64,000 nt of DNA from an uncultured Bacteroidales bacterium (GTDB taxonomy: Bacteria > Bacteroidota > Bacteroidia > Bacteroidales > JAAAOM01): the NCBI GenBank assembly GCA_964652315.1, contig CAZZBU010000001.1, positions 84,870-148,869 of the forward strand, read 5' to 3'. Of this stretch, positions 1,998 through 20,489 are shown in pieces. Below the pieces are notes generated by a model that had not been told where the DNA came from, searched no databases, and saw only the letters and a program-made list of their open reading frames with translations. Made by a program: the position numbers and the translations under genes. The first letter of the stretch is position 1, and each line of letters starts with the position of its first letter.

Positions 1998-3425
1998 CTA
2001 AAATCTGAAATATATAAAGGGATTAAAGCCTGATGATACTATATAGCTGGCTGACAGCGTTAACAGGATGACAGACATAAGTATATTCGATAAGAGTTGT
2101 CCGCTTTTATAATCTGACTTATAATAGAAATAATGTTCGGCTTTTTCCCCTAATTTAAAAAGGGTTATAAAAGAAAATATAACAGCAATGCCCAGGCTGA
2201 ATAAAAATTCGTTCTTGTTTGTTAGATTAAAGCTGTTGCCCGAAAATGAAAACATTTGTTTAATATAGGTTACCGCACTGCGTAATTCCTCCACTCTGAA
2301 AAAAACCCACCCCACAAGTGTTACAAAAAATGTAAAAGCGATGCTGATAGATTTACCGCTTTTATCGAGTATTTTTAATAAAAACAATCGGTCAAGAATG
2401 AGAAATAATCCATGAAAAGCACCCCAGATGATGAAATTCCAGGATGCCCCATGCCACAATCCACTAATCAGAAATACAATCCACAGATTAAGATATAACT
2501 TAGCCGGTGTTACCCGGTTACCTCCAAGCGGTATGTATAGGTAATCTTTCATCCACCTGCCGAGTGTAATGTGCCATCTGCGCCAGAATTCGGTGATGCT
2601 GCGCGAACGGTAAGGATTATTAAAGTTTTCAGGAAAAGTAAACCCAATCATCCGGCCAATGCCAATGGCCATATCCGAATATCCGCTGAAATCAAAATAT
2701 ATCTGCATGGCATAGCCAAGTGAAGCCATCCAGGCAGCCAAGGTGGATATCTCATCGGGTGGTATGGAATATAAGGCATCTACACCCTCACCAACACTGT
2801 TGGCAATGAGGGCTTTTTTTGCCAGCCCGATGCAAAACCGTTGAAACCCGAGAATTCTGTTTAGCAGCGTTTCATTGTTTTTCCTGTTTATTATCTGATC
2901 CGCAATGGAGTTAAACCGAATGATGGGACCGGCGATTAATTGTGGAAACATCAGAATATACACTAGATAATCCGATAGTTTATGAAGGGGCTTATGAATA
3001 TTCCGGTATACATCCACAGAATACGTGATGGATTGAAATGTGAAAAATGAAATACCAACCGGCAGGGCCACATTTGTCCAATGTATTTTATTGGCACCAG
3101 ATATTTCAAGAATGCTGTTCAAATTATCTATAAAAAAATTGAAATATTTAAAATATGCAAGAATCCCTACATTGATGAAAAGTGAAAATATGAGCAGTAT
3201 TTTTTTTGATTTTCTTTGATTTGTCCGGTGCATGGCATCAACCAAATAATAGTTTGCTGTCATTGAAGCAAGGACGAGAAAAATAAATTTAGGCGCACCC
3301 CAGGCGTAAAACAACACGCTAAATATCAAAACGATAACATTTTTTATTTTTTCCGGGCTTAGATAATATAGAATCAGAAAGAGCGGTAAAAAATAGAAAA
3401 GAAATATAACACTGCTAAATACCAT
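1998..3425 (-). CDS. MBOAT-family membrane O-acyltransferase (AlgI/DltB/PatA-like)
   Basis: Polytopic protein. WRRWHITLGRWMKDYLYIPLGGNR and GLWHGASWNFIIWG motifs, including the conserved His. Confidence 0.85.
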   Translation of the reverse strand: MVFSSVIFLFYFLPLFLILYYLSPEKIKNVIVLIFSVLFYAWGAPKFIFLVLASMTANYYLVDAMHRTNQRKSKKILLIFSLFINVGILAYFKYFNFFIDNLNSILEISGANKIHWTNVALPVGISFFTFQSITYSVDVYRNIHKPLHKLSDYLVYILMFPQLIAGPIIRFNSIADQIINRKNNETLLNRILGFQRFCIGLAKKALIANSVGEGVDALYSIPPDEISTLAAWMASLGYAMQIYFDFSGYSDMAIGIGRMIGFTFPENFNNPYRSRSITEFWRRWHITLGRWMKDYLYIPLGGNRVTPAKLYLNLWIVFLISGLWHGASWNFIIWGAFHGLFLILDRLFLLKILDKSGKSISIAFTFFVTLVGWVFFRVEELRSAVTYIKQMFSFSGNSFNLTNKNEFLFSLGIAVIFSFITLFKLGEKAEHYFYYKSDYKSGQLLSNILMSVILLTLSASYIVSSGFNPFIYFRF

Positions 3426-4513: not shown

Positions 4514-5851
4514 ATGAGTTTGCAAGGCGAAAAGCTTATTAAATCAGTAGTTAATCAGGGATTATGTACACATTGTGGAACGTGTATAGCTTTAGCCCAG
4601 GGCAAGCTTGGGATTGCATCAGATGATGAAGGGATAATTCCCAAAATAGAGGGCGATGGAATAATTGAAAATATTGTCTACGATGCTTGCCCGGGTAAAG
4701 GCTTGAATTATCCGGAACTTTTTTTACAGGTTCAGAAGAGCCTTCCTGATAATTTTATGATTGGCCCCTATCTGGAAGGATATATCGCCTATTCCAATGA
4801 TGAAAGCATTCGAAGACAGGGGGCTTCAGCCGGAATCCTTTCACATGTGTTGATTCATCTCTTAGAATCAGGAAAAATACAGGGTGCAATTGTTTGTAAA
4901 ATGGACGAAGAAAAGCCCTGGAACCCTAAAGTATATATTGCAGGTACAAAAGCAGAAATCCTTGAATCTGCTCAGAGTATCTATCAACCGGTGCCGGTTA
5001 ACCTGATTCTTAAAGATACTGCAAAGCACAAAGGTACACTGGCAATGGTCGGTTTGCCGGATCAGCTAGCTTCAATTAGATATTTACAAAAGAAGGAACA
5101 TCCATCAGTAAAAAATATCGCTTATTTAATCGGACCTTATGTGGGTATAAACATGACAGTTAGGGCTGTGCATAGTTTTATACGGTCAAATGGAGTGAAA
5201 AACCTTGACGCCATTAAATCTCTGGATTATCGGGCAGGCGAATGGCCCGGATATCTTAAAATCGTCACAAAAGACCATCGTGTGTTTAAAGCAGAAAAGT
5301 TCTATTATAATTATCTTCTACCTTTTTATGCAACAAGGCATTCCTTGTTATCAGTCGATTTTTCCAACGAACTTGCGGATATTTCGGTAGGTGACGCCTG
5401 GCATCCTGCCTTTGAAAAAGAACGGAAAGGTTTTTCTGTTGTAGTGATTCGTTCCAGTAAAGGCAGGGAGATATTTGATCAATTAAAAACTGATGCATCC
5501 ATAAATGCAGAAAAGCTGGAACCGGCAGATGTGCTCGACATGCACGGACACATGTTCGACTTCAAGAAGCGAGGGGCTTTTATCCGTATAAAATTTAGAA
5601 AGCTGTTCTTTCGGCATTGTCCTGATTACGGATATGTGCCTGAAAAGATAAGTGTTTCAAGGTATTTTGTTGAAATTTTCATTTGGGGTGTATTTCTGCT
5701 CTGTCAGAACAGAATGGCCCGTACACTGGTAAGATATATTCCTGTGAATGTTATCGGTTATGTATTTAATAAAATACGTATAGGTTGGAAATCTGTCTCT
5801 AAACCAACGAAAAGAAAAGGGATTAAAGATCAAGTGTTTCGACTAACATAA
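4514..5851 (+). CDS. Coenzyme F420 hydrogenase/dehydrogenase beta subunit-like (FrhB/FdhB family) protein
   Basis: N-terminal CTHCGTC cysteine motif. QGASAGILSHVLIHLLESGKIQGAIV and SIYQPVP N-domain signature. MVGLPDQLASIRYL C-domain signature. Confidence 0.6.
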   Translation: MSLQGEKLIKSVVNQGLCTHCGTCIALAQGKLGIASDDEGIIPKIEGDGIIENIVYDACPGKGLNYPELFLQVQKSLPDNFMIGPYLEGYIAYSNDESIRRQGASAGILSHVLIHLLESGKIQGAIVCKMDEEKPWNPKVYIAGTKAEILESAQSIYQPVPVNLILKDTAKHKGTLAMVGLPDQLASIRYLQKKEHPSVKNIAYLIGPYVGINMTVRAVHSFIRSNGVKNLDAIKSLDYRAGEWPGYLKIVTKDHRVFKAEKFYYNYLLPFYATRHSLLSVDFSNELADISVGDAWHPAFEKERKGFSVVVIRSSKGREIFDQLKTDASINAEKLEPADVLDMHGHMFDFKKRGAFIRIKFRKLFFRHCPDYGYVPEKISVSRYFVEIFIWGVFLLCQNRMARTLVRYIPVNVIGYVFNKIRIGWKSVSKPTKRKGIKDQVFRLT

Positions 5852-14868: not shown

Positions 14869-14993
14869 TTATGTTGGACGCAGAGCTGCGCTAAGATTTA
14901 ATGAAGAAAATGTAAGCCGAATACGCAAAGATTCGCTAAGATTATTAAAGAAACACAAAAAATAATAATATATACCCAAATAAAATACGTAAA

Positions 14994-15164
14994 ATGACTG
15001 AGAACGAGATTTCAAATAAAATAATTGGTTATGCAATTGATGTCCATAAGTTAGTTGGCACGGGACTGCTAGAATCCGGTTATCAAAAGTGTCTGGAATA
15101 TGAATTGATCAATCATGGTTTTAGGGTTAAATCAGTGTTGCCACAATTTGTAAATAATTTATGA
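14994..15164 (+). pseudogene. Truncated GxxExxY-family (PD-(D/E)XK-like) gene remnant, 56 codons
   Basis: Translation is MTENEISNKIIGYAIDVHKLVGTGLLESGYQKCLEYELINHGFRV..., which contains the GLLESGY motif. It stops after about 45% of the usual family length of roughly 125 aa. Confidence 0.7.
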
Positions 15165-15166
15165 TA

Positions 15167-15174
15167 TAACTTTG
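15167..15174 (+). promoter_or_regulatory. Candidate -7 promoter box (TAACTTTG) inside the right arm of the cassette
   Basis: Exact TAnnTTTG match 53 bp upstream of the ATG at 15227. Confidence 0.3.
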
Positions 15175-15226
15175 CGTAACTCAGCGAATACTTCGCGCAA
15201 CTCTGCGTAATACAAAAAACATTCAT

Positions 15227-16626: not shown

Positions 16627-18291
16627 TTAAAACTGAAAATAAATAAACGGCTGCAAATCTGCTGAAACAGACTGGTAAATAATAAATACAACTACGGCGG
16701 AGATGAGGATTTTTGCCCAGATGGGTGTACCAATGAACCAGTCGCGGTACCAGACTTTTGTTCTTTCTGGCAGCCAGTGTACAATAAGTCCGAAGGCCAT
16801 CACAAGGAACACTTTATAATAAGCGCCTATCATGGTCGGTACATTTGCCCAGTCGAAGTTGCCAAACACCTGATTCAGTAAATCATATGTACCCTGCATG
16901 GTTTCACCGCGGAACCAGATGCGCGTAAAGGTGATGAACGTAAAGGTGAAAAATATTTTCCAGGTATTGGCCAGCCAGTGGGTGCTGTGTTCGTAGGGGC
17001 TTACCTTACGCCAGAATTTATACACGACCAGCCCCAGTCCGTTTAAACCGCCCCAAAGCACAAAGGTCCAGCTTGAGCCGTGCCATAAACCGCCCAGCAG
17101 CATGGTCATCATCAGGTTGATGTTGGTGGATACCGTGAGTTTCATTCCCGGAAAAATGCGCGTCAATAGATAAATTACCAAAATGGCACCTCCAAAAATG
17201 GGAAACAGCCATAGATTACCAGCCAGAAGAACGATAAAAGTAAGAATCACCCCCAGGCTAATGTAAGTAAACGCACTGCCACCGCGGTTGCCACCCATAG
17301 GGATGTACAGGTAATCCTTTAGCCACGATGACAAGGACATGTGCCAGCGTTTCCAGAATTCACCCACGTTTTTGGCTTTGTACGGTGAGTTGAAGTTTTT
17401 GGGCAAGTGAAAGCCCATGAGCAGGGCCACGCCAATGGCGATATCCGTATATCCTGAAAAGTCGCAATAGACCTGCAATGAATATCCATACAGTCCCATC
17501 AGGTTTTCAAAACCCGAATAGGATGCCGGATTGGCAAATACACGGTCGATGAGGTTGACCGCAATATAATCACCCACAAACATTTTCTTCATCAACCCCT
17601 TAAGAATAAGGTACATGGCCAGCCCAAATTCCTCCATGCTCAGCGAGTAATTTTTGTATAACTGGGGAATAAAATCCGCTGCCCGCACAATAGGACCGGC
17701 AACAAGCTGGGGGAAGAACGACACATAAAAGCCGAAATCAAGCAGGTTACGGACAGGTTCCACCTTATCGCGGTACACATCAATGGAATAGCTGATGGTC
17801 TGAAAAGTAAAAAAAGAGATGCCAACCGGTGGCAGGATTTGCACAATATCGAAATGCGTGCCCAGCAGCAGGTTCGACCACTTGGCAGCATGAGTAACCA
17901 CTTCGAGGTTGGTTTCAAAGATGGTGTTTATGGTGGTGGTGAAAAAATAATCGTATTTGAAAAAACCAAGGACCGAAAGGTTGAGAAAAATGCTTAGTGC
18001 AAGCCAGAGCTTTTTGGTGAGTCTTTTTTGTGATCCGTAGATGGCCTGCCCGATGTAAAAATCCGTAACTGTGGAGAAGAGCAGGATAAAGAAAAACATC
18101 CCACCGGTTTTGTAGTAAAAGAAAAGGCTTATAAGGAAAAGGTAACCGTTGCGTAAAGATTTATTCTTATATATAAAGGAATAAAACAAGAGTACGACAG
18201 CAAAAAAGGCCCAAAAGAAGAACTGTGTAAAAATTAGCGGCTTCTCCGGGTTGAAGAAAAGAATGTCTTTTATGTGCTGCAGGAGGTCCAT
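16627..18291 (-). CDS. MBOAT-family membrane O-acyltransferase (PatA/AlgI-like)
   Basis: WKRWHMSLSSWLKDYLYIPMGGNRG and GGLWHGSSWTFVLWG motifs. Polytopic. Confidence 0.85.
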   Translation of the reverse strand: MDLLQHIKDILFFNPEKPLIFTQFFFWAFFAVVLLFYSFIYKNKSLRNGYLFLISLFFYYKTGGMFFFILLFSTVTDFYIGQAIYGSQKRLTKKLWLALSIFLNLSVLGFFKYDYFFTTTINTIFETNLEVVTHAAKWSNLLLGTHFDIVQILPPVGISFFTFQTISYSIDVYRDKVEPVRNLLDFGFYVSFFPQLVAGPIVRAADFIPQLYKNYSLSMEEFGLAMYLILKGLMKKMFVGDYIAVNLIDRVFANPASYSGFENLMGLYGYSLQVYCDFSGYTDIAIGVALLMGFHLPKNFNSPYKAKNVGEFWKRWHMSLSSWLKDYLYIPMGGNRGGSAFTYISLGVILTFIVLLAGNLWLFPIFGGAILVIYLLTRIFPGMKLTVSTNINLMMTMLLGGLWHGSSWTFVLWGGLNGLGLVVYKFWRKVSPYEHSTHWLANTWKIFFTFTFITFTRIWFRGETMQGTYDLLNQVFGNFDWANVPTMIGAYYKVFLVMAFGLIVHWLPERTKVWYRDWFIGTPIWAKILISAVVVFIIYQSVSADLQPFIYFQF

Positions 18292-18350
18292 ATGTTATTG
18301 CTGATGCTTATTTTTCATTTTGCGAATATAATGGATTTTATTAGCATTGG

Positions 18351-18399
18351 GCAGGGAGCATGGTGCATGGAGCAGGGAGCAAAGGGTATAGAGAAGCTC
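18351..18399. repeat. Heptad repeat array (7 x 7 bp, GCAnGGA-type)
   Basis: Units are GCAGGGA GCATGGT GCATGGA GCAGGGA GCAAAGG GTATAGA GAAGCTC. Confidence 0.7.
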
Positions 18400-18517
18400 C
18401 TATCAACAAAAAAAATACTTTTACCGGGATTAGTTTTTTCTTGAAAACGCGCTGTAATTAATTGTATCATGCTTAAATAATTTTGCCTAATAATATTAAT
18501 ATCTTGTAATTCAGGTA

Positions 18518-18886
18518 CTATTTTGCGTTGTTTAAAAGATATTTTCTAAAATTGGTGATTCGAGAACTTAAAATCTGCAATCTTTCGAAGAGGCTTTGGC
18601 GTGTATGATCCAATAAAAGATTTCTACGTTCTAGTAGAATGAGCATGTTAGCACATTCGAAGATTGACTTCCTGGCAATAACAAGGAAATTTGCAAAACC
18701 TTTATTTGAAAAAGAACCGCTTCCTTCCGCGATATTATTTGAAATGCTTAAGGCAGCTCCACGAAGCTGTTCACCAAACCGGTATAATTTTTTATTGCTA
18801 ATATCATCAGCGATATTAAACATTTCATCAGCAAGAACAATTCTATCTTGCCATATAGTTAAATCCTCAAATCTGAATTGTTTCAT
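18518..18886 (-). CDS. Four-helix-bundle protein (23S rRNA intervening-sequence protein family; Avd-like fold)
   Basis: 122 aa. FEDLTIWQ...QLRGAALSISNNIAEGSG...F.NFL.IA.GS..E family signature. Confidence 0.85.
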   Translation of the reverse strand: MKQFRFEDLTIWQDRIVLADEMFNIADDISNKKLYRFGEQLRGAALSISNNIAEGSGSFSNKGFANFLVIARKSIFECANMLILLERRNLLLDHTRQSLFERLQILSSRITNFRKYLLNNAK

Positions 18887-18930
18887 GGTTATTTATTTTA
18901 GTTTATCAAAATTATAATCTCAAAATCGAT

Positions 18931-19007
18931 ACCCTATTCCCTTCGCTCCTTGCTGCATATTCCAAGCCCTCTACTCTCTATTCTCTGCCCCATGCATGCC
19001 CTTTGCC
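18931..19007. repeat. Heptad repeat array (11 x 7 bp), inverted relative to 18351-18399
   Basis: Units are ACCCTAT TCCCTTC GCTCCTT GCTGCAT ATTCCAA GCCCTCT ACTCTCT ATTCTCT GCCCCAT GCATGCC CTTTGCC. The array overlaps the last 9 codons of the SGNH gene. Confidence 0.7.
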
Positions 19008-20273
19008 CACTGTCTTTTGCTTTTCCAGATGTTGCCCATAAGCCTTGAGTATTGCATTATGCAGCAGGTCCGCCTTAAACATATACCCCTTCCATGTAAA
19101 ATGTATCTTGTCATAACGTGCCAGGCCAAAACGGTACCAGACGAAAATGGAGTTTAATCCTCCCATGATTTCATAAAAATCCCAGATGCCGGCATTATAC
19201 TCCTCGGCCAGTTCATAAATTACCTGCTGTATTTTTGCCGTGTTTTTATTGATGTATTTCCGGTACAAATAGCTATCGTTTGGAACAGTAAGCAACAGTG
19301 CTGTATTGGGTGCCGCCTTCAGAATGTTTTGAATGAGGGTATCGTAATTCTGTTTGTATACATCCCGGTCGAACCGGCGGGTGTTTCCGTCGTTGGTACC
19401 AATGGAAATTACTACCATATCCGGCTGAACAGCTTTAAGATGAGGCACGAAAAGTTCACTTTTCAGGTAGGAGGGAAGGCTGGCACCGTTAATGCCAATG
19501 GCGTGATATACCAGGCCCGGATCATCAGTCAACAATTCAATTCCGTATAGCTGAAAATAATGTTGGGTACTGTCAATTTGAAGCATTTGCAGCTTAAGCG
19601 TGTCGGTATAATCCCTTAAAGTAAACTCCGAATATCCCAGTTCCTCATTGACCCACATGGAATTAACATTATGAATTGGTGAGGGAATGACCATGTAGCT
19701 TTGCGTATCTATTTCATGATACACCCGTACCCGGTTAAAGTCATAATGTTCCAAAGAATCAATATTCAGGATTATGGTTATCGTGGCCTCCTTGTCAGTC
19801 GTTCGTCCAGTGATACCGGTTAGTCCCAGTTTCAGGTTGTTGATGTTCTGCACGCTCCGCCTGGTTTGCCATTCACCGGTAAACATTCCCTTGTAGTTGG
19901 CGGGATTGTTGGTTTTGGCCATACGGTAAGGGAAAAGTACCCCCCTTCCCCCATTGCCACCGGGCATTATATGTTGCAGGCGTTGCCTGAGCCTGTGGGT
20001 ATATATATCGGCCTGGATATGAGAACCTCCGAGGTGGACAACATTTAATCGTCCTTCGCCTTTAAAGTTGATGCTGTCGTAGCCATTGAAAAATCGCTCA
20101 AAGGCCAGGGAGTCACCAGGAAACTTAATGATGTTTTTTTTATAATGCACAAAATCGTAATACGGCAGGTCAAGCGGGTAATCCGGTGCAAACGGCTGCT
20201 GACCAATTGCTGTATATGAGGTTATAATAATCAGAAATATGGTATTTATCTTTTTAGGAAAACTAAATATCAT
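18978..20273 (-). CDS. SGNH/GDSL-family hydrolase or acyltransferase (PatB/Ape-like candidate)
   Basis: Signal peptide. VVHLGGSHIQ (block I-like), ISIGTNDG (block III) and DKIHFT (block V DxxH) motifs. Confidence 0.7.
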   Translation of the reverse strand: MIFSFPKKINTIFLIIITSYTAIGQQPFAPDYPLDLPYYDFVHYKKNIIKFPGDSLAFERFFNGYDSINFKGEGRLNVVHLGGSHIQADIYTHRLRQRLQHIMPGGNGGRGVLFPYRMAKTNNPANYKGMFTGEWQTRRSVQNINNLKLGLTGITGRTTDKEATITIILNIDSLEHYDFNRVRVYHEIDTQSYMVIPSPIHNVNSMWVNEELGYSEFTLRDYTDTLKLQMLQIDSTQHYFQLYGIELLTDDPGLVYHAIGINGASLPSYLKSELFVPHLKAVQPDMVVISIGTNDGNTRRFDRDVYKQNYDTLIQNILKAAPNTALLLTVPNDSYLYRKYINKNTAKIQQVIYELAEEYNAGIWDFYEIMGGLNSIFVWYRFGLARYDKIHFTWKGYMFKADLLHNAILKAYGQHLEKQKTVGKGHAWGRE

Positions 20274-20309: not shown

Positions 20310-20489
20310 GCTATTTAAATGTTAATAGCATTTTGCACCTATGCACCTTTGCAAGCCATTTCCATTTCAAACTCTTTCGGCGTCTTTGCGTCTTTGCGAG
20401 CCATTTCCATTTCAAACTCTTTCGGCGTCTTTGCGTCTTTGCGAGCCATTTCTGCTTCAAGCCTTTTTAGCGCCTTTGCGTTCACTCCT
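20310..20489. repeat. 45-bp tandem repeat, 4 copies (2 identical central copies, 2 degenerate flanking copies)
   Basis: GCCATTTCCATTTCAAACTCTTTCGGCGTCTTTGCGTCTTTGCGA occurs at 20355-20399 and identically at 20400-20444. Diverged copies are at 20310-20354 and 20445-20489. Confidence 0.9.

What the first reader, a model, noticed from the sequence alone, without database searches (positions are those of the whole stretch)
18351..19007. Four-helix-bundle (rRNA-IVS-family) gene bracketed by inverted 7-bp repeat arrays inside an mRNA operon
Seen in sequence. The 122-aa four-helix-bundle ORF (18518-18886, minus strand) sits between the second SGNH gene and the MBOAT gene of a co-directional operon. 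Two arrays of 7-bp units in opposite orientation flank it. The left array is 18351-18399 (GCAGGGA GCATGGT GCATGGA GCAGGGA GCAAAGG GTATAGA GAAGCTC). The right array is 18931-19007 (ACCCTAT TCCCTTC GCTCCTT GCTGCAT ATTCCAA GCCCTCT ACTCTCT ATTCTCT GCCCCAT GCATGCC CTTTGCC). The reverse complement of the right array contains AGCAAGGAGCGAAGGGAATAGGGTAT, compared with AGCAGGGAGCAAAGGGTAT on the left. It also contains GGGCAAAGGGCATGCATGGGGCAG, compared with GGGCAGGGAGCATGGTGCATGGAGCAG on the left. The two arrays could therefore pair imperfectly in the transcript. The right array extends into the SGNH ORF, whose last 9 codons (GKGHAWGRE, nt 18981-19007) are array sequence. Established knowledge. This protein family is named for ORFs inside 23S rRNA intervening sequences, which are excised by RNase III at a stem formed by flanking inverted repeats. 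Inference. This is an IVS-like, stem-bracketed gene cassette inserted into a protein-coding operon. It may be a mobile or selfish cassette, and its stem could create an RNase III processing site that uncouples MBOAT expression from the upstream SGNH genes.
Basis: partly seen in the sequence, partly recalled or inferred. Interest (0 to 1): 0.6.

Follow-up and report, generated by a model that had tools for sequence, protein, structure and literature searches.

The report
Heptamer-bracketed four-helix-bundle gene cassette
A small gene of the "rRNA intervening-sequence protein" family, bracketed by two mirror-image arrays of 7-base repeats, has been inserted between two genes of a cell-envelope operon; the same package recurs in many Bacteroidota and Cyanobacteria and appears to be a largely undescribed kind of selfish gene cassette.

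Summary
Window 18518-18886(-) encodes a PF05635/TIGR02436 four-helix-bundle (4HB) protein. Two opposed 7-nt-periodic arrays flank it (18931-19012 and 18343-18399). They pair in the predicted transcript fold.

The cassette is a lineage-specific insert. In 46 of 57 orthologous SLT-SGNH-SGNH-MBOAT operons the SGNH2|MBOAT gap is -14 to +55 nt, against 686 nt here. None of the 80 related loci carries a 4HB gene.

The architecture is general. Of 68 non-redundant homologue loci, lag 7 is the dominant period in 53 upstream and 48 downstream flanks. The G-rich arm lies upstream in 67 of 68. Heptamer-periodic stretches are about 160-fold enriched over background. The two arms co-vary in sequence. Divergent 4HB subfamilies, a Riemerella isolate and four cyanobacterial plasmids show the same layout with unrelated heptamers. 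Near-identical cassettes sit in different contexts, and homology breaks at the outer array edges. Arrays differ by multiples of 7 nt between strains. The protein is under purifying selection (dN/dS about 0.08).

The Coxiella 23S IVS, which RNase III cleaves, also carries variable heptameric repeats. The IVS-like cassette reading is therefore supported. RNase III processing in mRNA remains inferred, and a G·U-wobble test gave no RNA-specific signal.

The parts
18931..19012 (-). It is G-rich on the transcribed strand and has 7-nt periodicity. It overlaps the last 9 codons and the stop codon of the upstream SGNH gene.
   Evidence: Lag-7 identity is 0.51 against 0.31+-0.05 for shuffles. It pairs with 18343-18399 in the MFE fold and in the duplex calculation. 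Inverted-repeat pairs I1, I2, I6 and I7 link the two arms.
18887..18930 (-). AT-rich leader between the 5' arm and the 4HB start codon. It contains one match to the Bacteroidetes -7 box (TAATTTTG, 18907-18914).
   Evidence: Sequence read. The motif lies at -28 relative to the ATG. Only three distinct cassettes in the sample (this lineage, L119, L133) have such a match, which I estimate to be about the chance number. The sigma-70-type promoter scan is at chance level.
18518..18886 (-). The 122-aa four-helix-bundle protein gene (PF05635 / TIGR02436; the S23p / Avd-like fold).
   Evidence: Family matches. PDB sequence matches: 2GSC at E 1e-9, profile 1e-14; 2RLD at 7e-5. AF2 model pLDDT 95. Foldseek TM-scores: 0.87 to 2GSC, 0.82 to 2RLD, 0.80 to Avd 4DWL. 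Homologues have a median dN/dS of 0.08.
18400..18517 (-). AT-rich spacer between the 4HB stop codon and the 3' arm. The stretch 18460-18504 is a 71%-identical direct copy of the region around the 4HB start (18876-18920). It may be a vestige of a second cassette gene.
   Evidence: Direct repeat D1; sequence. Degenerate 4HB remnants are seen inside cassettes elsewhere (L095, L161).
18343..18399 (-). It is C-rich on the transcribed strand, built of GCNNNGR units on the + strand, and length-polymorphic.
   Evidence: TRF finds period 7 with 5.6 copies. Lag-7 identity is 0.62 against 0.30+-0.06. A 99%-identical MAG contig (L083) has a 21-nt (3x7) deletion here.
18978..20273 (-). Upstream host gene, the second SGNH/GDSL hydrolase. 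Its variable C-terminal tail runs into the 5' arm.
   Evidence: Pfam matches. Orthologue C-termini diverge after ...LKAYxNHL.
16627..18291 (-). Downstream host gene, the MBOAT O-acyltransferase. It starts 51 nt after the 3' arm.
   Evidence: Pfam and NCBIfam matches. In 46 of 57 orthologous operons it starts -14 to +55 nt from the SGNH2 stop.

Best explanation
The segment 18343-19012 is one copy of a widespread cassette: [G-rich heptamer array] - short AT-rich leader - four-helix-bundle (PF05635) gene - [C-rich heptamer array complementary to the first].

Shown here:
- The cassette was inserted in this lineage into the normally tight SGNH2|MBOAT junction of a conserved envelope operon.
- It lies in the sense orientation.
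- Cassettes of this type usually lack a recognisable promoter of their own.
- The protein is kept by purifying selection.
- The arrays turn over quickly in steps of 7 nt while the two arms stay complementary.

Inferred:
- The cassette is transcribed as part of the operon RNA.
- There the two arms zip into a long, register-tolerant imperfect duplex that loops out the 4HB ORF, as in 23S rRNA intervening sequences that carry the same gene.
- This duplex is the natural substrate of RNase III. Cleavage would release the 4HB mRNA and split the operon transcript into an SGNH part and an MBOAT part, each capped by half a stem.

The element behaves as a selfish, IVS-like passenger. The role of the Avd-like pentameric protein is most plausibly binding of the repeat arms or of the RNA, but this is not established.
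For: Insertion:
- The gap is 686 nt here. It is -14 to +55 nt in 46 of 57 orthologous operons, and no 4HB gene occurs in the 80 related loci.
- The same cassette is present in a 99%-identical MAG (L083) and in three short Logan contigs (L001, L002, L084).

Pairing:
- The MFE fold joins the two arms.
- The arm-arm duplex has z -4.7.

Generality in 68 non-redundant homologue loci:
- Lag 7 is the best period in 53 upstream and 48 downstream flanks, against 7 of 67 coding controls.
- G exceeds C upstream in 67 of 68, and C exceeds G downstream in 55 of 68.
- Heptamer-periodic stretches number 121.6 per 100 kb in the flanks, against 0.77 per 100 kb in 910 kb of background.

Arm co-variation:
- The variable triplet of the unit is shared between arms in 34 of 45 loci, against 18.8 expected. 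The maximum in 2000 permutations is 29.
- The local complement score is 34.4 within a locus, 23.4 across loci and 21.7 in direct orientation.

Same layout with unrelated units:
- It is seen in most of 11 divergent 4HB ORFs.
- It is seen in Riemerella between the Fe-S accessory gene and sufB.
- It is seen on 4 of 6 cyanobacterial plasmids, including inserts in cas operons.

Discrete unit: 88-96%-identical cassettes have different neighbours, and homology ends at the outer array edges.

Slippage: indels of 21, 35 and 42 nt occur within arrays.

Dependence on host transcription:
- The upstream neighbour is co-directional in 63 of 66 loci, the downstream one in 57 of 62, and both in 45 of 49.
- The spacer between the upstream array and the ATG is mostly a few tens of nucleotides.
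- The -7 box occurs at roughly the number I estimate for chance.

Protein: dN/dS is 0.08, and the fold matches XCC0516, BT_0352 and Avd.

Precedent: the Coxiella 23S IVS has an S23p ORF, a 28-bp terminal stem, RNase III excision and 2-3 variable GACAGAT repeats, with the 5' cut at the first repeat (PMC4990558).
Against: There are no transcript data.
- Mismatches between arms show no excess of G·U over A·C (75 against 92, n.s.). RNA-level selection is therefore not demonstrated. The test is weak because the array register is ambiguous.
- Arm complementarity could be maintained at the DNA level by template switching between inverted repeats.
- The window's arms are imperfect (72-82% complementary) and unequal in length (82 against 57 nt). 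The stem has a large internal loop.
- This particular copy has a TAATTTTG -7-like box 20 nt before the ATG. An internal promoter would give a transcript that lacks the 5' arm, and this cannot be excluded.
- Some cassettes show only one arm (L086/L089).
Confidence: 0.55

Rival explanations
1. DNA-level element. The inverted heptamer arrays are the recombinogenic or mobile termini of the cassette, acting through hairpin, cruciform or slipped-strand DNA, or simply as homology for recombination. They mediate its insertion, excision or shuffling between loci. RNA pairing is incidental.
For: - Homology between near-identical cassettes in different contexts ends exactly at the outer array edges.
- Orphan arms and gene-less heptamer hairpins occur at operon junctions (L011, L028, L031, L057/58/70).
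- Indels come in multiples of 7.
- There is no G·U bias.
- In the first look-ups, several contigs ended within about 100-320 nt after the 4HB gene.
Against: - No transposase, integrase, HUH enzyme or reverse transcriptase adjoins the cassette in the window, and none appeared among the called genes of the first look-ups, apart from one IS110 gene in L089.
- No target-site duplication is visible.
- The strict sense orientation within operons and the usual lack of a promoter are not required by a DNA-only role.
- No relatives occur in 2.9 M viral contigs.
Confidence: 0.25
2. Protein-binding arrays. The heptamers are reiterated binding sites for the pentameric 4HB protein, an Avd-like nucleic-acid binder. 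The cassette would then be an autoregulated or self-packaging RNP, and the 7-nt period would reflect the protein's footprint.
For: - Period 7 is invariant across subfamilies and phyla while the unit sequence is free.
- The protein is strongly conserved.
- Its fold matches Avd, which works inside an RNA-protein complex (PDB 4DWL and 8UBE; PMC10053308).
Against: - Near-identical proteins flank different units, and different proteins share units. This argues against sequence-specific recognition.
- No binding data exist for any stand-alone member.
- Avd is not known to read heptamers (my own knowledge).
Confidence: 0.15
3. Coincidence. The arrays are ordinary low-complexity intergenic sequence unrelated to the gene. 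Alternatively, they are the inverted repeats of an invertible DNA switch.
For: Simple repeats do occur elsewhere in the window.
Against: - Heptamer-periodic stretches are about 160-fold enriched next to 4HB genes.
- The arms co-vary.
- The G-rich arm is upstream of the gene in 67 of 68 loci. An invertible segment would show both orientations.
- No recombinase gene adjoins the cassette.
Confidence: 0.02

Closest known systems
23S (and 16S) rRNA intervening sequences carrying an S23p/PF05635 ORF (Leptospira, Coxiella, Xanthomonas, CPR bacteria)
   Same: - The same protein family, encoded in sense orientation within a host transcript.
- Terminal inverted repeats enclose the ORF in a stem-loop.
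- In Coxiella there are tandem heptameric repeats before the ORF that vary in number between strains, and an RNase III cut at the first repeat (PMC4990558; bioRxiv 2024.02.27.582315).
   Different: - The host transcript here is an mRNA operon, not rRNA. None of the roughly 80 homologue loci lies next to rRNA motifs.
- Both arms are themselves heptamer arrays of very variable sequence.
- The ORF is under strong purifying selection, whereas the Coxiella ORF is decaying.
Correia/NEMIS elements of Neisseria (my own knowledge, not checked in a paper here)
   Same: Inverted-repeat elements inserted within operons and co-transcribed. They fold into hairpins that RNase III cleaves, changing mRNA stability. 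This is the best functional analogue for what the arms would do in an mRNA.
   Different: Correia elements are about 100-155-bp non-coding MITEs with a fixed sequence and a TA target duplication. The element here carries a conserved protein gene, and its arms are free-sequence heptamer arrays.
Avd, the accessory protein of diversity-generating retroelements
   Same: The four-helix-bundle fold (TM 0.80/0.90, rmsd 1.7 A to 4DWL). PF05635 is described as Avd-like (PMC10053308).
   Different: No reverse transcriptase or TR/VR pair lies next to the gene. Sequence identity is 12%, and a sequence profile does not reach Avd.
Heptanucleotide tandem repeats of Cyanobacteria, Beggiatoaceae and some Bacteroidetes (TAACTGA arrays, PMC4679880; STRR repeats, my own knowledge)
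   Same: Intergenic arrays of 7-nt units with variable copy number, in the same phyla and often just upstream of start codons. One cassette here has more than 25 TAACAGT-type units (L169).
   Different: Those arrays were described as direct repeats of a fixed unit. No link was made to PF05635 genes or to a complementary partner array.
Integron gene cassettes
   Same: A promoterless ORF plus an imperfect-hairpin-forming recombination sequence, expressed from a host promoter and found in many contexts.
   Different: An integron cassette has one attC site downstream of the ORF, not two opposed arrays. No intI, attI or cassette array is present here.

Membership tests
PF05635 / TIGR02436 four-helix-bundle (S23p) protein family | The sequence matches the family HMM above the curated cut-off. 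| tested here: met
   PF05635 at 87.2 bits (cut-off 33.8). TIGR02436 at 82.5 bits (cut-off 24).
PF05635 / TIGR02436 four-helix-bundle (S23p) protein family | A four-helix-bundle fold like XCC0516 (2GSC) and BT_0352 (2RLD). | tested here: met
   AF2 model with pLDDT 95 and four long helices. Foldseek TM 0.87 and 0.82, rmsd 1.3-1.6 A.
PF05635 / TIGR02436 four-helix-bundle (S23p) protein family | Homopentameric toroid assembly. | not tested
   Only a monomer was modelled. 2GSC and 2RLD each have five chains.
rRNA intervening sequence (IVS) | Inserted in a helix of a 23S or 16S rRNA gene. | tested here: not met
   It lies between two protein-coding genes. No rRNA signature motifs occur in any fetched locus.
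rRNA intervening sequence (IVS) | Terminal inverted repeats form a stem that encloses the element or its ORF. | tested here: met
   Arm complementarity is also seen across the family.
rRNA intervening sequence (IVS) | The ORF is in sense orientation to the host transcript and has no promoter of its own. | tested here: inconclusive
   Sense orientation is met (family-wide). For the family, promoter motifs occur at about the number I estimate for chance. This copy, however, has one -7-box match.
rRNA intervening sequence (IVS) | Excised from the transcript by RNase III. | not testable with these tools
   This needs RNA end-mapping or an rnc mutant. It has been shown for the Coxiella IVS in vitro (PMC4990558).
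Diversity-generating retroelement (Avd as accessory gene) | An adjacent reverse transcriptase and a template/variable repeat pair. | tested here: not met
   The neighbours are SGNH, MBOAT and SLT genes. The only repeats are the heptamer arrays.
Invertible DNA switch | A segment flanked by inverted repeats is found in both orientations, with a site-specific recombinase nearby. | tested here: not met
   The G-rich arm is upstream of the gene in 67 of 68 loci. No recombinase gene adjoins the cassette.
Integron gene cassette | A single attC downstream of the ORF, with intI/attI and tandem cassettes. | tested here: not met
   Two opposed arrays flank a single gene. No integrase is found within the operon.
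Anti-phage defence or phage gene | A match to PADLOC or PHROGs models, or presence on viral contigs. | tested here: not met
   No PADLOC hit, no PHROGs hit and no relatives in viral contigs.

The most novel reading that the evidence does not exclude
PF05635 cassettes would be a cross-phylum family of non-autonomous mobile gene cassettes whose ends are free-sequence, register-tolerant heptamer 'zippers'. The Avd-like pentamer would bind these arms and recruit a host enzyme to copy or move the cassette, for example a DGR or group II intron reverse transcriptase, or a structure-specific nuclease. rRNA IVSs, the 4HB inserts in cas operons, and part of the orphan heptanucleotide arrays of Cyanobacteria and Bacteroidota would then all be products of this one element.
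Probability: 0.15. Interest if true: 0.85.

Novelty: new variant of a known kind. Interest (0 to 1): 0.7.

Why it matters
PF05635 is one of the commonest uncharacterised small-protein families in Bacteroidota and Cyanobacteria. It is the family of the DGR protein Avd, and it is known mainly from rRNA intervening sequences.

This work shows that stand-alone copies are discrete cassettes with a conserved, sequence-independent architecture: period 7, complementary arms and fixed polarity. That gives the family its first testable molecular handle. It also connects rRNA IVSs, the 4HB inserts seen between cas genes, and unexplained heptanucleotide arrays.

There are practical consequences:
- The arrays create spurious C- or N-terminal extensions of neighbouring ORFs. 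Examples are the last 9 codons of the SGNH gene here and the start of the 700-aa ORF in L085.
- Several contigs in the first look-ups ended shortly after the 4HB gene, so the arrays may cause assembly breaks.
- The arms may alter operon expression by creating double-stranded RNA.

Tried and rejected
- Rfam scan of 18200-19100 at E<=10: only chance-level hits.
- PADLOC and PHROGs: no hit.
- Viral-contig scan: no relatives.
- G·U against A·C mismatch asymmetry as an RNA-level signature: 75 against 92, no support.
- All-against-all RNAduplex comparison: timed out. It was replaced by local alignment and per-locus duplexes. The per-locus duplexes discriminate poorly because long flanks allow large loops, although the paired test gives p 5e-12.
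- Bacteroidetes -7 box search: 4 of 79 sampled flank sets, two of which are copies of the window's own cassette. I estimate this to be about the chance number.
- Sigma-70 promoter and terminator scan: at chance.
- Invertible-switch idea: rejected by the arm polarity.
- The roughly 540-nt 'insertion' in MBOAT of L072, L075 and L081: an in-frame protein extension, not a cassette.
- Literature: five full-text searches found no paper linking PF05635 genes to flanking inverted heptamer arrays. The nearest is the remark on heptameric repeats in the Coxiella IVS.
- No target-site duplication could be defined, because the closest empty site (L003, 80% MBOAT identity) is too diverged.
Full report
**What is in the window**

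The minus-strand ORF 18518-18886 encodes a 122-aa protein. It matches PF05635 (23S_rRNA_IVP, 87 bits) and TIGR02436 ('four helix bundle protein', 82.5 bits). An AlphaFold model built on 36 homologues is a confident four-helix bundle (pLDDT 95). Its best structural matches are XCC0516 (2GSC, TM 0.87), BT_0352 (2RLD, TM 0.82) and Avd of the Bordetella phage DGR (4DWL, TM 0.80/0.90, rmsd 1.7 A, 12% identity).

The gene lies between a second SGNH/GDSL hydrolase gene (18978-20273) and an MBOAT gene (16627-18291). An SLT/LysM transglycosylase gene and a first SGNH gene lie upstream, and all are on the minus strand.

The two flanking arrays are real:
- TRF finds the left one (period 7, 5.6 copies).
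- Lag-7 self-identity is 0.62 (18343-18399) and 0.51 (18931-19012). Shuffles give about 0.30, and 0 of 2000 reach the observed value.
- The arms are opposed in composition: G24/C8 against G9/C35.
- The last nine SGNH codons (GKGHAWGRE) and the stop codon lie in the right array.
- Folding the minus-strand RNA 19030-18320 pairs the two arrays around the ORF (z -2.8).
- The arm-arm duplex is -63.7 kcal/mol, against -41.6+-4.7 for a shuffled partner.

The stem is imperfect. The 5' arm is about 25 nt longer than the 3' arm and bulges out.

**It is an insertion**

A scan of one genome per species with the MBOAT protein returned 80 loci from Bacteroidales, Marinilabiliales-type and Flavobacteriales genomes. 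The order SLT-SGNH1-SGNH2-MBOAT is widely conserved.
- In 57 loci where both genes could be placed, the SGNH2|MBOAT distance is -14 to +55 nt in 46. It is 686 nt in the window.
- The larger gaps hold other things: a TonB-type outer-membrane gene, a HAD phosphatase gene, a sulfotransferase-like ORF, or non-coding sequence.
- An iterated profile search found no 4HB gene in any of the 80 loci.
- The only contigs that share the cassette are a 99%-identical MAG contig (L083, same synteny) and three short Logan contigs (L001, L002, L084).

So empty sites are the rule, and the cassette is a derived feature of this lineage. The conserved core of SGNH2 ends at ...LKAYxNHL and is followed by variable tails in all orthologues. 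The array-encoded tail therefore costs nothing conserved.

**The architecture is general**

This is the main result. Close homologues of the protein (50-77% identity) occur in unrelated contexts. In L085 the gene is preceded by GGGCGAA-type heptamers and followed by their reverse complement (GCCCTCA, GCCCTTC and similar).

In 68 non-redundant metagenomic loci:
- Lag 7 is the dominant period in 53 upstream and 48 downstream flanks, against 7 of 67 control coding segments.
- The most periodic upstream stretch has G>C in 67 of 68 loci. The downstream one has C>G in 55 of 68.
- A GCNNNRR-unit array in sense orientation precedes the gene in 53 loci, and its complement follows in 50. Both are present in 45.
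- A sequence-agnostic count of heptamer-periodic stretches gives 121.6 per 100 kb in 4HB flanks, against 0.77 per 100 kb in 910 kb of related genomes without 4HB genes.

The unit sequence differs from locus to locus (ACA, ATG, GAA, TCA, GCA and others), but the two arms of a locus agree:
- The variable triplet is shared between arms in 34 of 45 loci, against 18.8 expected when arms are permuted among loci (maximum 29 in 2000 permutations).
- The local complement score is 34.4 within a locus, against 23.4 across loci and 21.7 in direct orientation.

Independent samples show the same layout with unrelated units:
- Eleven divergent 4HB ORFs of other subfamilies happen to lie in the same loci, and most of them show it. 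Unit pairs include GTGGTGA/TCACCAC, GAGAATT/AATTCTC, GAATGTA/TACATTC and AATTGTT/AACAGTT, the last with more than 25 copies.
- The 4HB gene between the Fe-S accessory gene and sufB of a Riemerella anatipestifer isolate is flanked by GGTTYAA and TTRAACC arrays.
- Four of six cyanobacterial plasmid copies also show it. They are Nostoc (GGGAAAA; GTCAGGA), Anabaena sp. 90 between cas6 and cas4 (GGTGACA/TGTCACC), and Picosynechococcus between cmr2 and cmr3 (GGAGATA/TATCTCC).

Period 7, arm complementarity and a G-rich 5' arm are therefore the conserved features. The unit sequence is not conserved.

**Behaviour of the cassette**

1. The arrays change by whole heptamers. There is a 21-nt indel in the window's 3' arm between strains, a 35-nt indel between L086 and L089, and a 42-nt indel in L150.
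2. The unit is discrete. Five cassettes with 88-96% identical genes from different metagenomes have different upstream genes, and one also has a different downstream gene. Homology begins at the outer edge of the 5' array and ends at the outer edge of the 3' array.
3. Some insertion sites are shared by diverged genomes. At the HlyD|ABC junction (L122, L165, L133) the arrays differ in unit composition yet remain complementary. I also read the cysD|cysN and efflux-gene sites as shared, from the flanking sequences.
4. Orphan arms and gene-less heptamer hairpins occur at junctions of this very operon in other genomes (L011, L028, L031, L057/58/70). The window has an orphan purine-rich repeat between the two SGNH genes.
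5. The cassettes sit in sense orientation within gene strings. The upstream neighbour is co-directional in 63 of 66 loci, the downstream one in 57 of 62, and both in 45 of 49.
6. The leader between the 5' arm and the ATG is mostly a few tens of nucleotides and AT-rich. The Bacteroidetes -7 box occurs at about the number I estimate for chance. The window's own copy is one of the few with a match (TAATTTTG, 18907-18914).
7. The protein is under strong purifying selection (median dN/dS 0.08 over 97 pairs).
8. No relatives occur on viral contigs, and there are no defence-system or phage-family matches.

**Link to known biology**

PF05635 proteins are functionally uncharacterised and Avd-like (PMC10053308). 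They are encoded in 16S/23S intervening sequences (bioRxiv 2024.02.27.582315) and have been noticed between cas genes (PMC3936711).

The Coxiella burnetii 23S IVS carries an S23p ORF. It is closed by a 28-bp stem of terminal inverted repeats, and RNase III cleaves it in vitro. It has two or three tandem heptameric repeats (GACAGAT) before the ORF, whose number varies between strains, and the 5' RNase III cut falls at the first repeat (PMC4990558).

The window's cassette shares each of these features except the rRNA host. I found no paper that describes the inverted heptamer arrays as a general property of PF05635 genes, or that describes such cassettes in mRNA operons. Heptanucleotide direct repeats in Beggiatoaceae, Cyanobacteria and a few Bacteroidetes were described without this link (PMC4679880). 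Rfam has no matching family.

**Mechanism**

Shown here:
- insertion into the operon;
- sense orientation;
- the usual lack of a promoter;
- predicted long-range pairing;
- co-varying arms;
- heptamer slippage;
- a conserved protein.

Inferred: the operon transcript reads through the cassette, and the arms form a long imperfect duplex whose repeated nature tolerates any register. RNase III cuts such a duplex, as it does in rRNA IVSs. This would release the 4HB mRNA and separate the SGNH and MBOAT parts of the message.

I put about 0.55 on this model. Against it:
- The arm mismatches show no excess of G·U over A·C (75 against 92).
- DNA-level template switching could keep the arms complementary.
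- This copy may have an internal promoter.

The main rival (0.25) is that the arrays act as DNA termini for recombination or mobility, which fits the sharp homology edges and the orphan arms. A second rival, not exclusive of the others (0.15), is that the heptamers are reiterated binding sites of the pentameric protein. That would explain the fixed period. Chance, or an invertible switch, is excluded by the enrichment, the co-variation and the polarity.

**Verdict**

It remains unproven as to RNase III processing and expression uncoupling.

This is a new variant of a known kind: an IVS-type element living in mRNA operons, with free-sequence heptamer arms. The window's copy is one ordinary member of that class. 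The interest lies in the class.

Noticed in passing
window 14869-15217: A truncated GxxExxY (TIGR04256) ORF, 14994-15164(+), is bracketed by its own inverted repeats (14869-14895 / 15191-15217, 27 nt, 78% complementary). A 21-nt tandem repeat lies at 15169-15213. This is a second, different stem-bracketed small-gene cassette in the same window.
   Followed up: partly
window 20347-20452: A 45-nt tandem repeat (2.4 copies, 98% identical) lies in the SGNH1|SGNH2 spacer. It is purine-rich on the transcribed strand and ends in GCAAAGG/GCATAGG-type units. It is an orphan array with no partner arm and no gene.
   Followed up: partly
window 18460-18504 vs 18876-18920: A 45-nt direct repeat (71% identity) copies the region around the 4HB start codon into the spacer after the 4HB stop. 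It may be a vestige of a second, degraded cassette gene.
   Followed up: no
L011 5700-5900; L028 3220-3329; L057/L058/L070 ~4590-4660: Orphan heptamer arrays lie at junctions of the same operon in other genomes. L011 has a G-rich array at SGNH2|MBOAT. In L028 a CCCAGCA/CCCAGTA array forms the C-terminal tail of SGNH2 at the MBOAT start. L057, L058 and L070 have GTTCAGR arrays at SGNH1|SGNH2.
   Followed up: partly
L028 ~445-505; L031 ~3200-3280: Gene-less hairpins built entirely of heptamers (GCCATTA GCTATTG ... GCCAATG GCTAATA) lie in the SLT|SGNH1 spacer.
   Followed up: no
L003 4110-4580: The SGNH1|SGNH2 gap of the closest genome holds a truncated GxxExxY gene flanked by CTCTGCGG/CTCAGCG-type inverted repeats.
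   Followed up: no
L161 ~2380-2500: The gene upstream of the cassette is a truncated second 4HB gene. It stops at its conserved NIAEG motif (GCCGAGGGC), exactly where the heptamer array begins. The motif's codons themselves fit the GCNNNGR unit.
   Followed up: no
L122, L165, L133 (first ~60 nt after the 4HB stop): A small gene-less heptamer hairpin is nested between the 4HB stop and the 3' arm. It is conserved in three genomes at the same HlyD|ABC-transporter junction.
   Followed up: no
L176 (Anabaena sp. 90 pANA02), L177 (Picosynechococcus PCC 7003): 4HB cassettes with heptamer arms are inserted between cas6 and cas4 and between cmr2 and cmr3. This may explain the reported 'association' of 23S_rRNA_IVP genes with CRISPR-Cas loci as passenger insertions.
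   Followed up: partly
L169 473-1270: A divergent 4HB gene is flanked by more than 25 copies of TAACAGT/AACTGTT-type units. These resemble the TAACTGA arrays reported in Beggiatoaceae, Cyanobacteria and Bacteroidetes.
   Followed up: no
L072, L075, L081 (MBOAT gene): The MBOAT orthologue carries an in-frame insertion of about 175 aa after residue 431, rich in hydrophobic residues.
   Followed up: partly
L085 4385-4500: The called 700-aa ORF downstream of the cassette begins inside the C-rich 3' arm (MSLAFRYLLSALCTSRFALSPQPSALSP...). This is probably a spurious N-terminal extension caused by the array.
   Followed up: no
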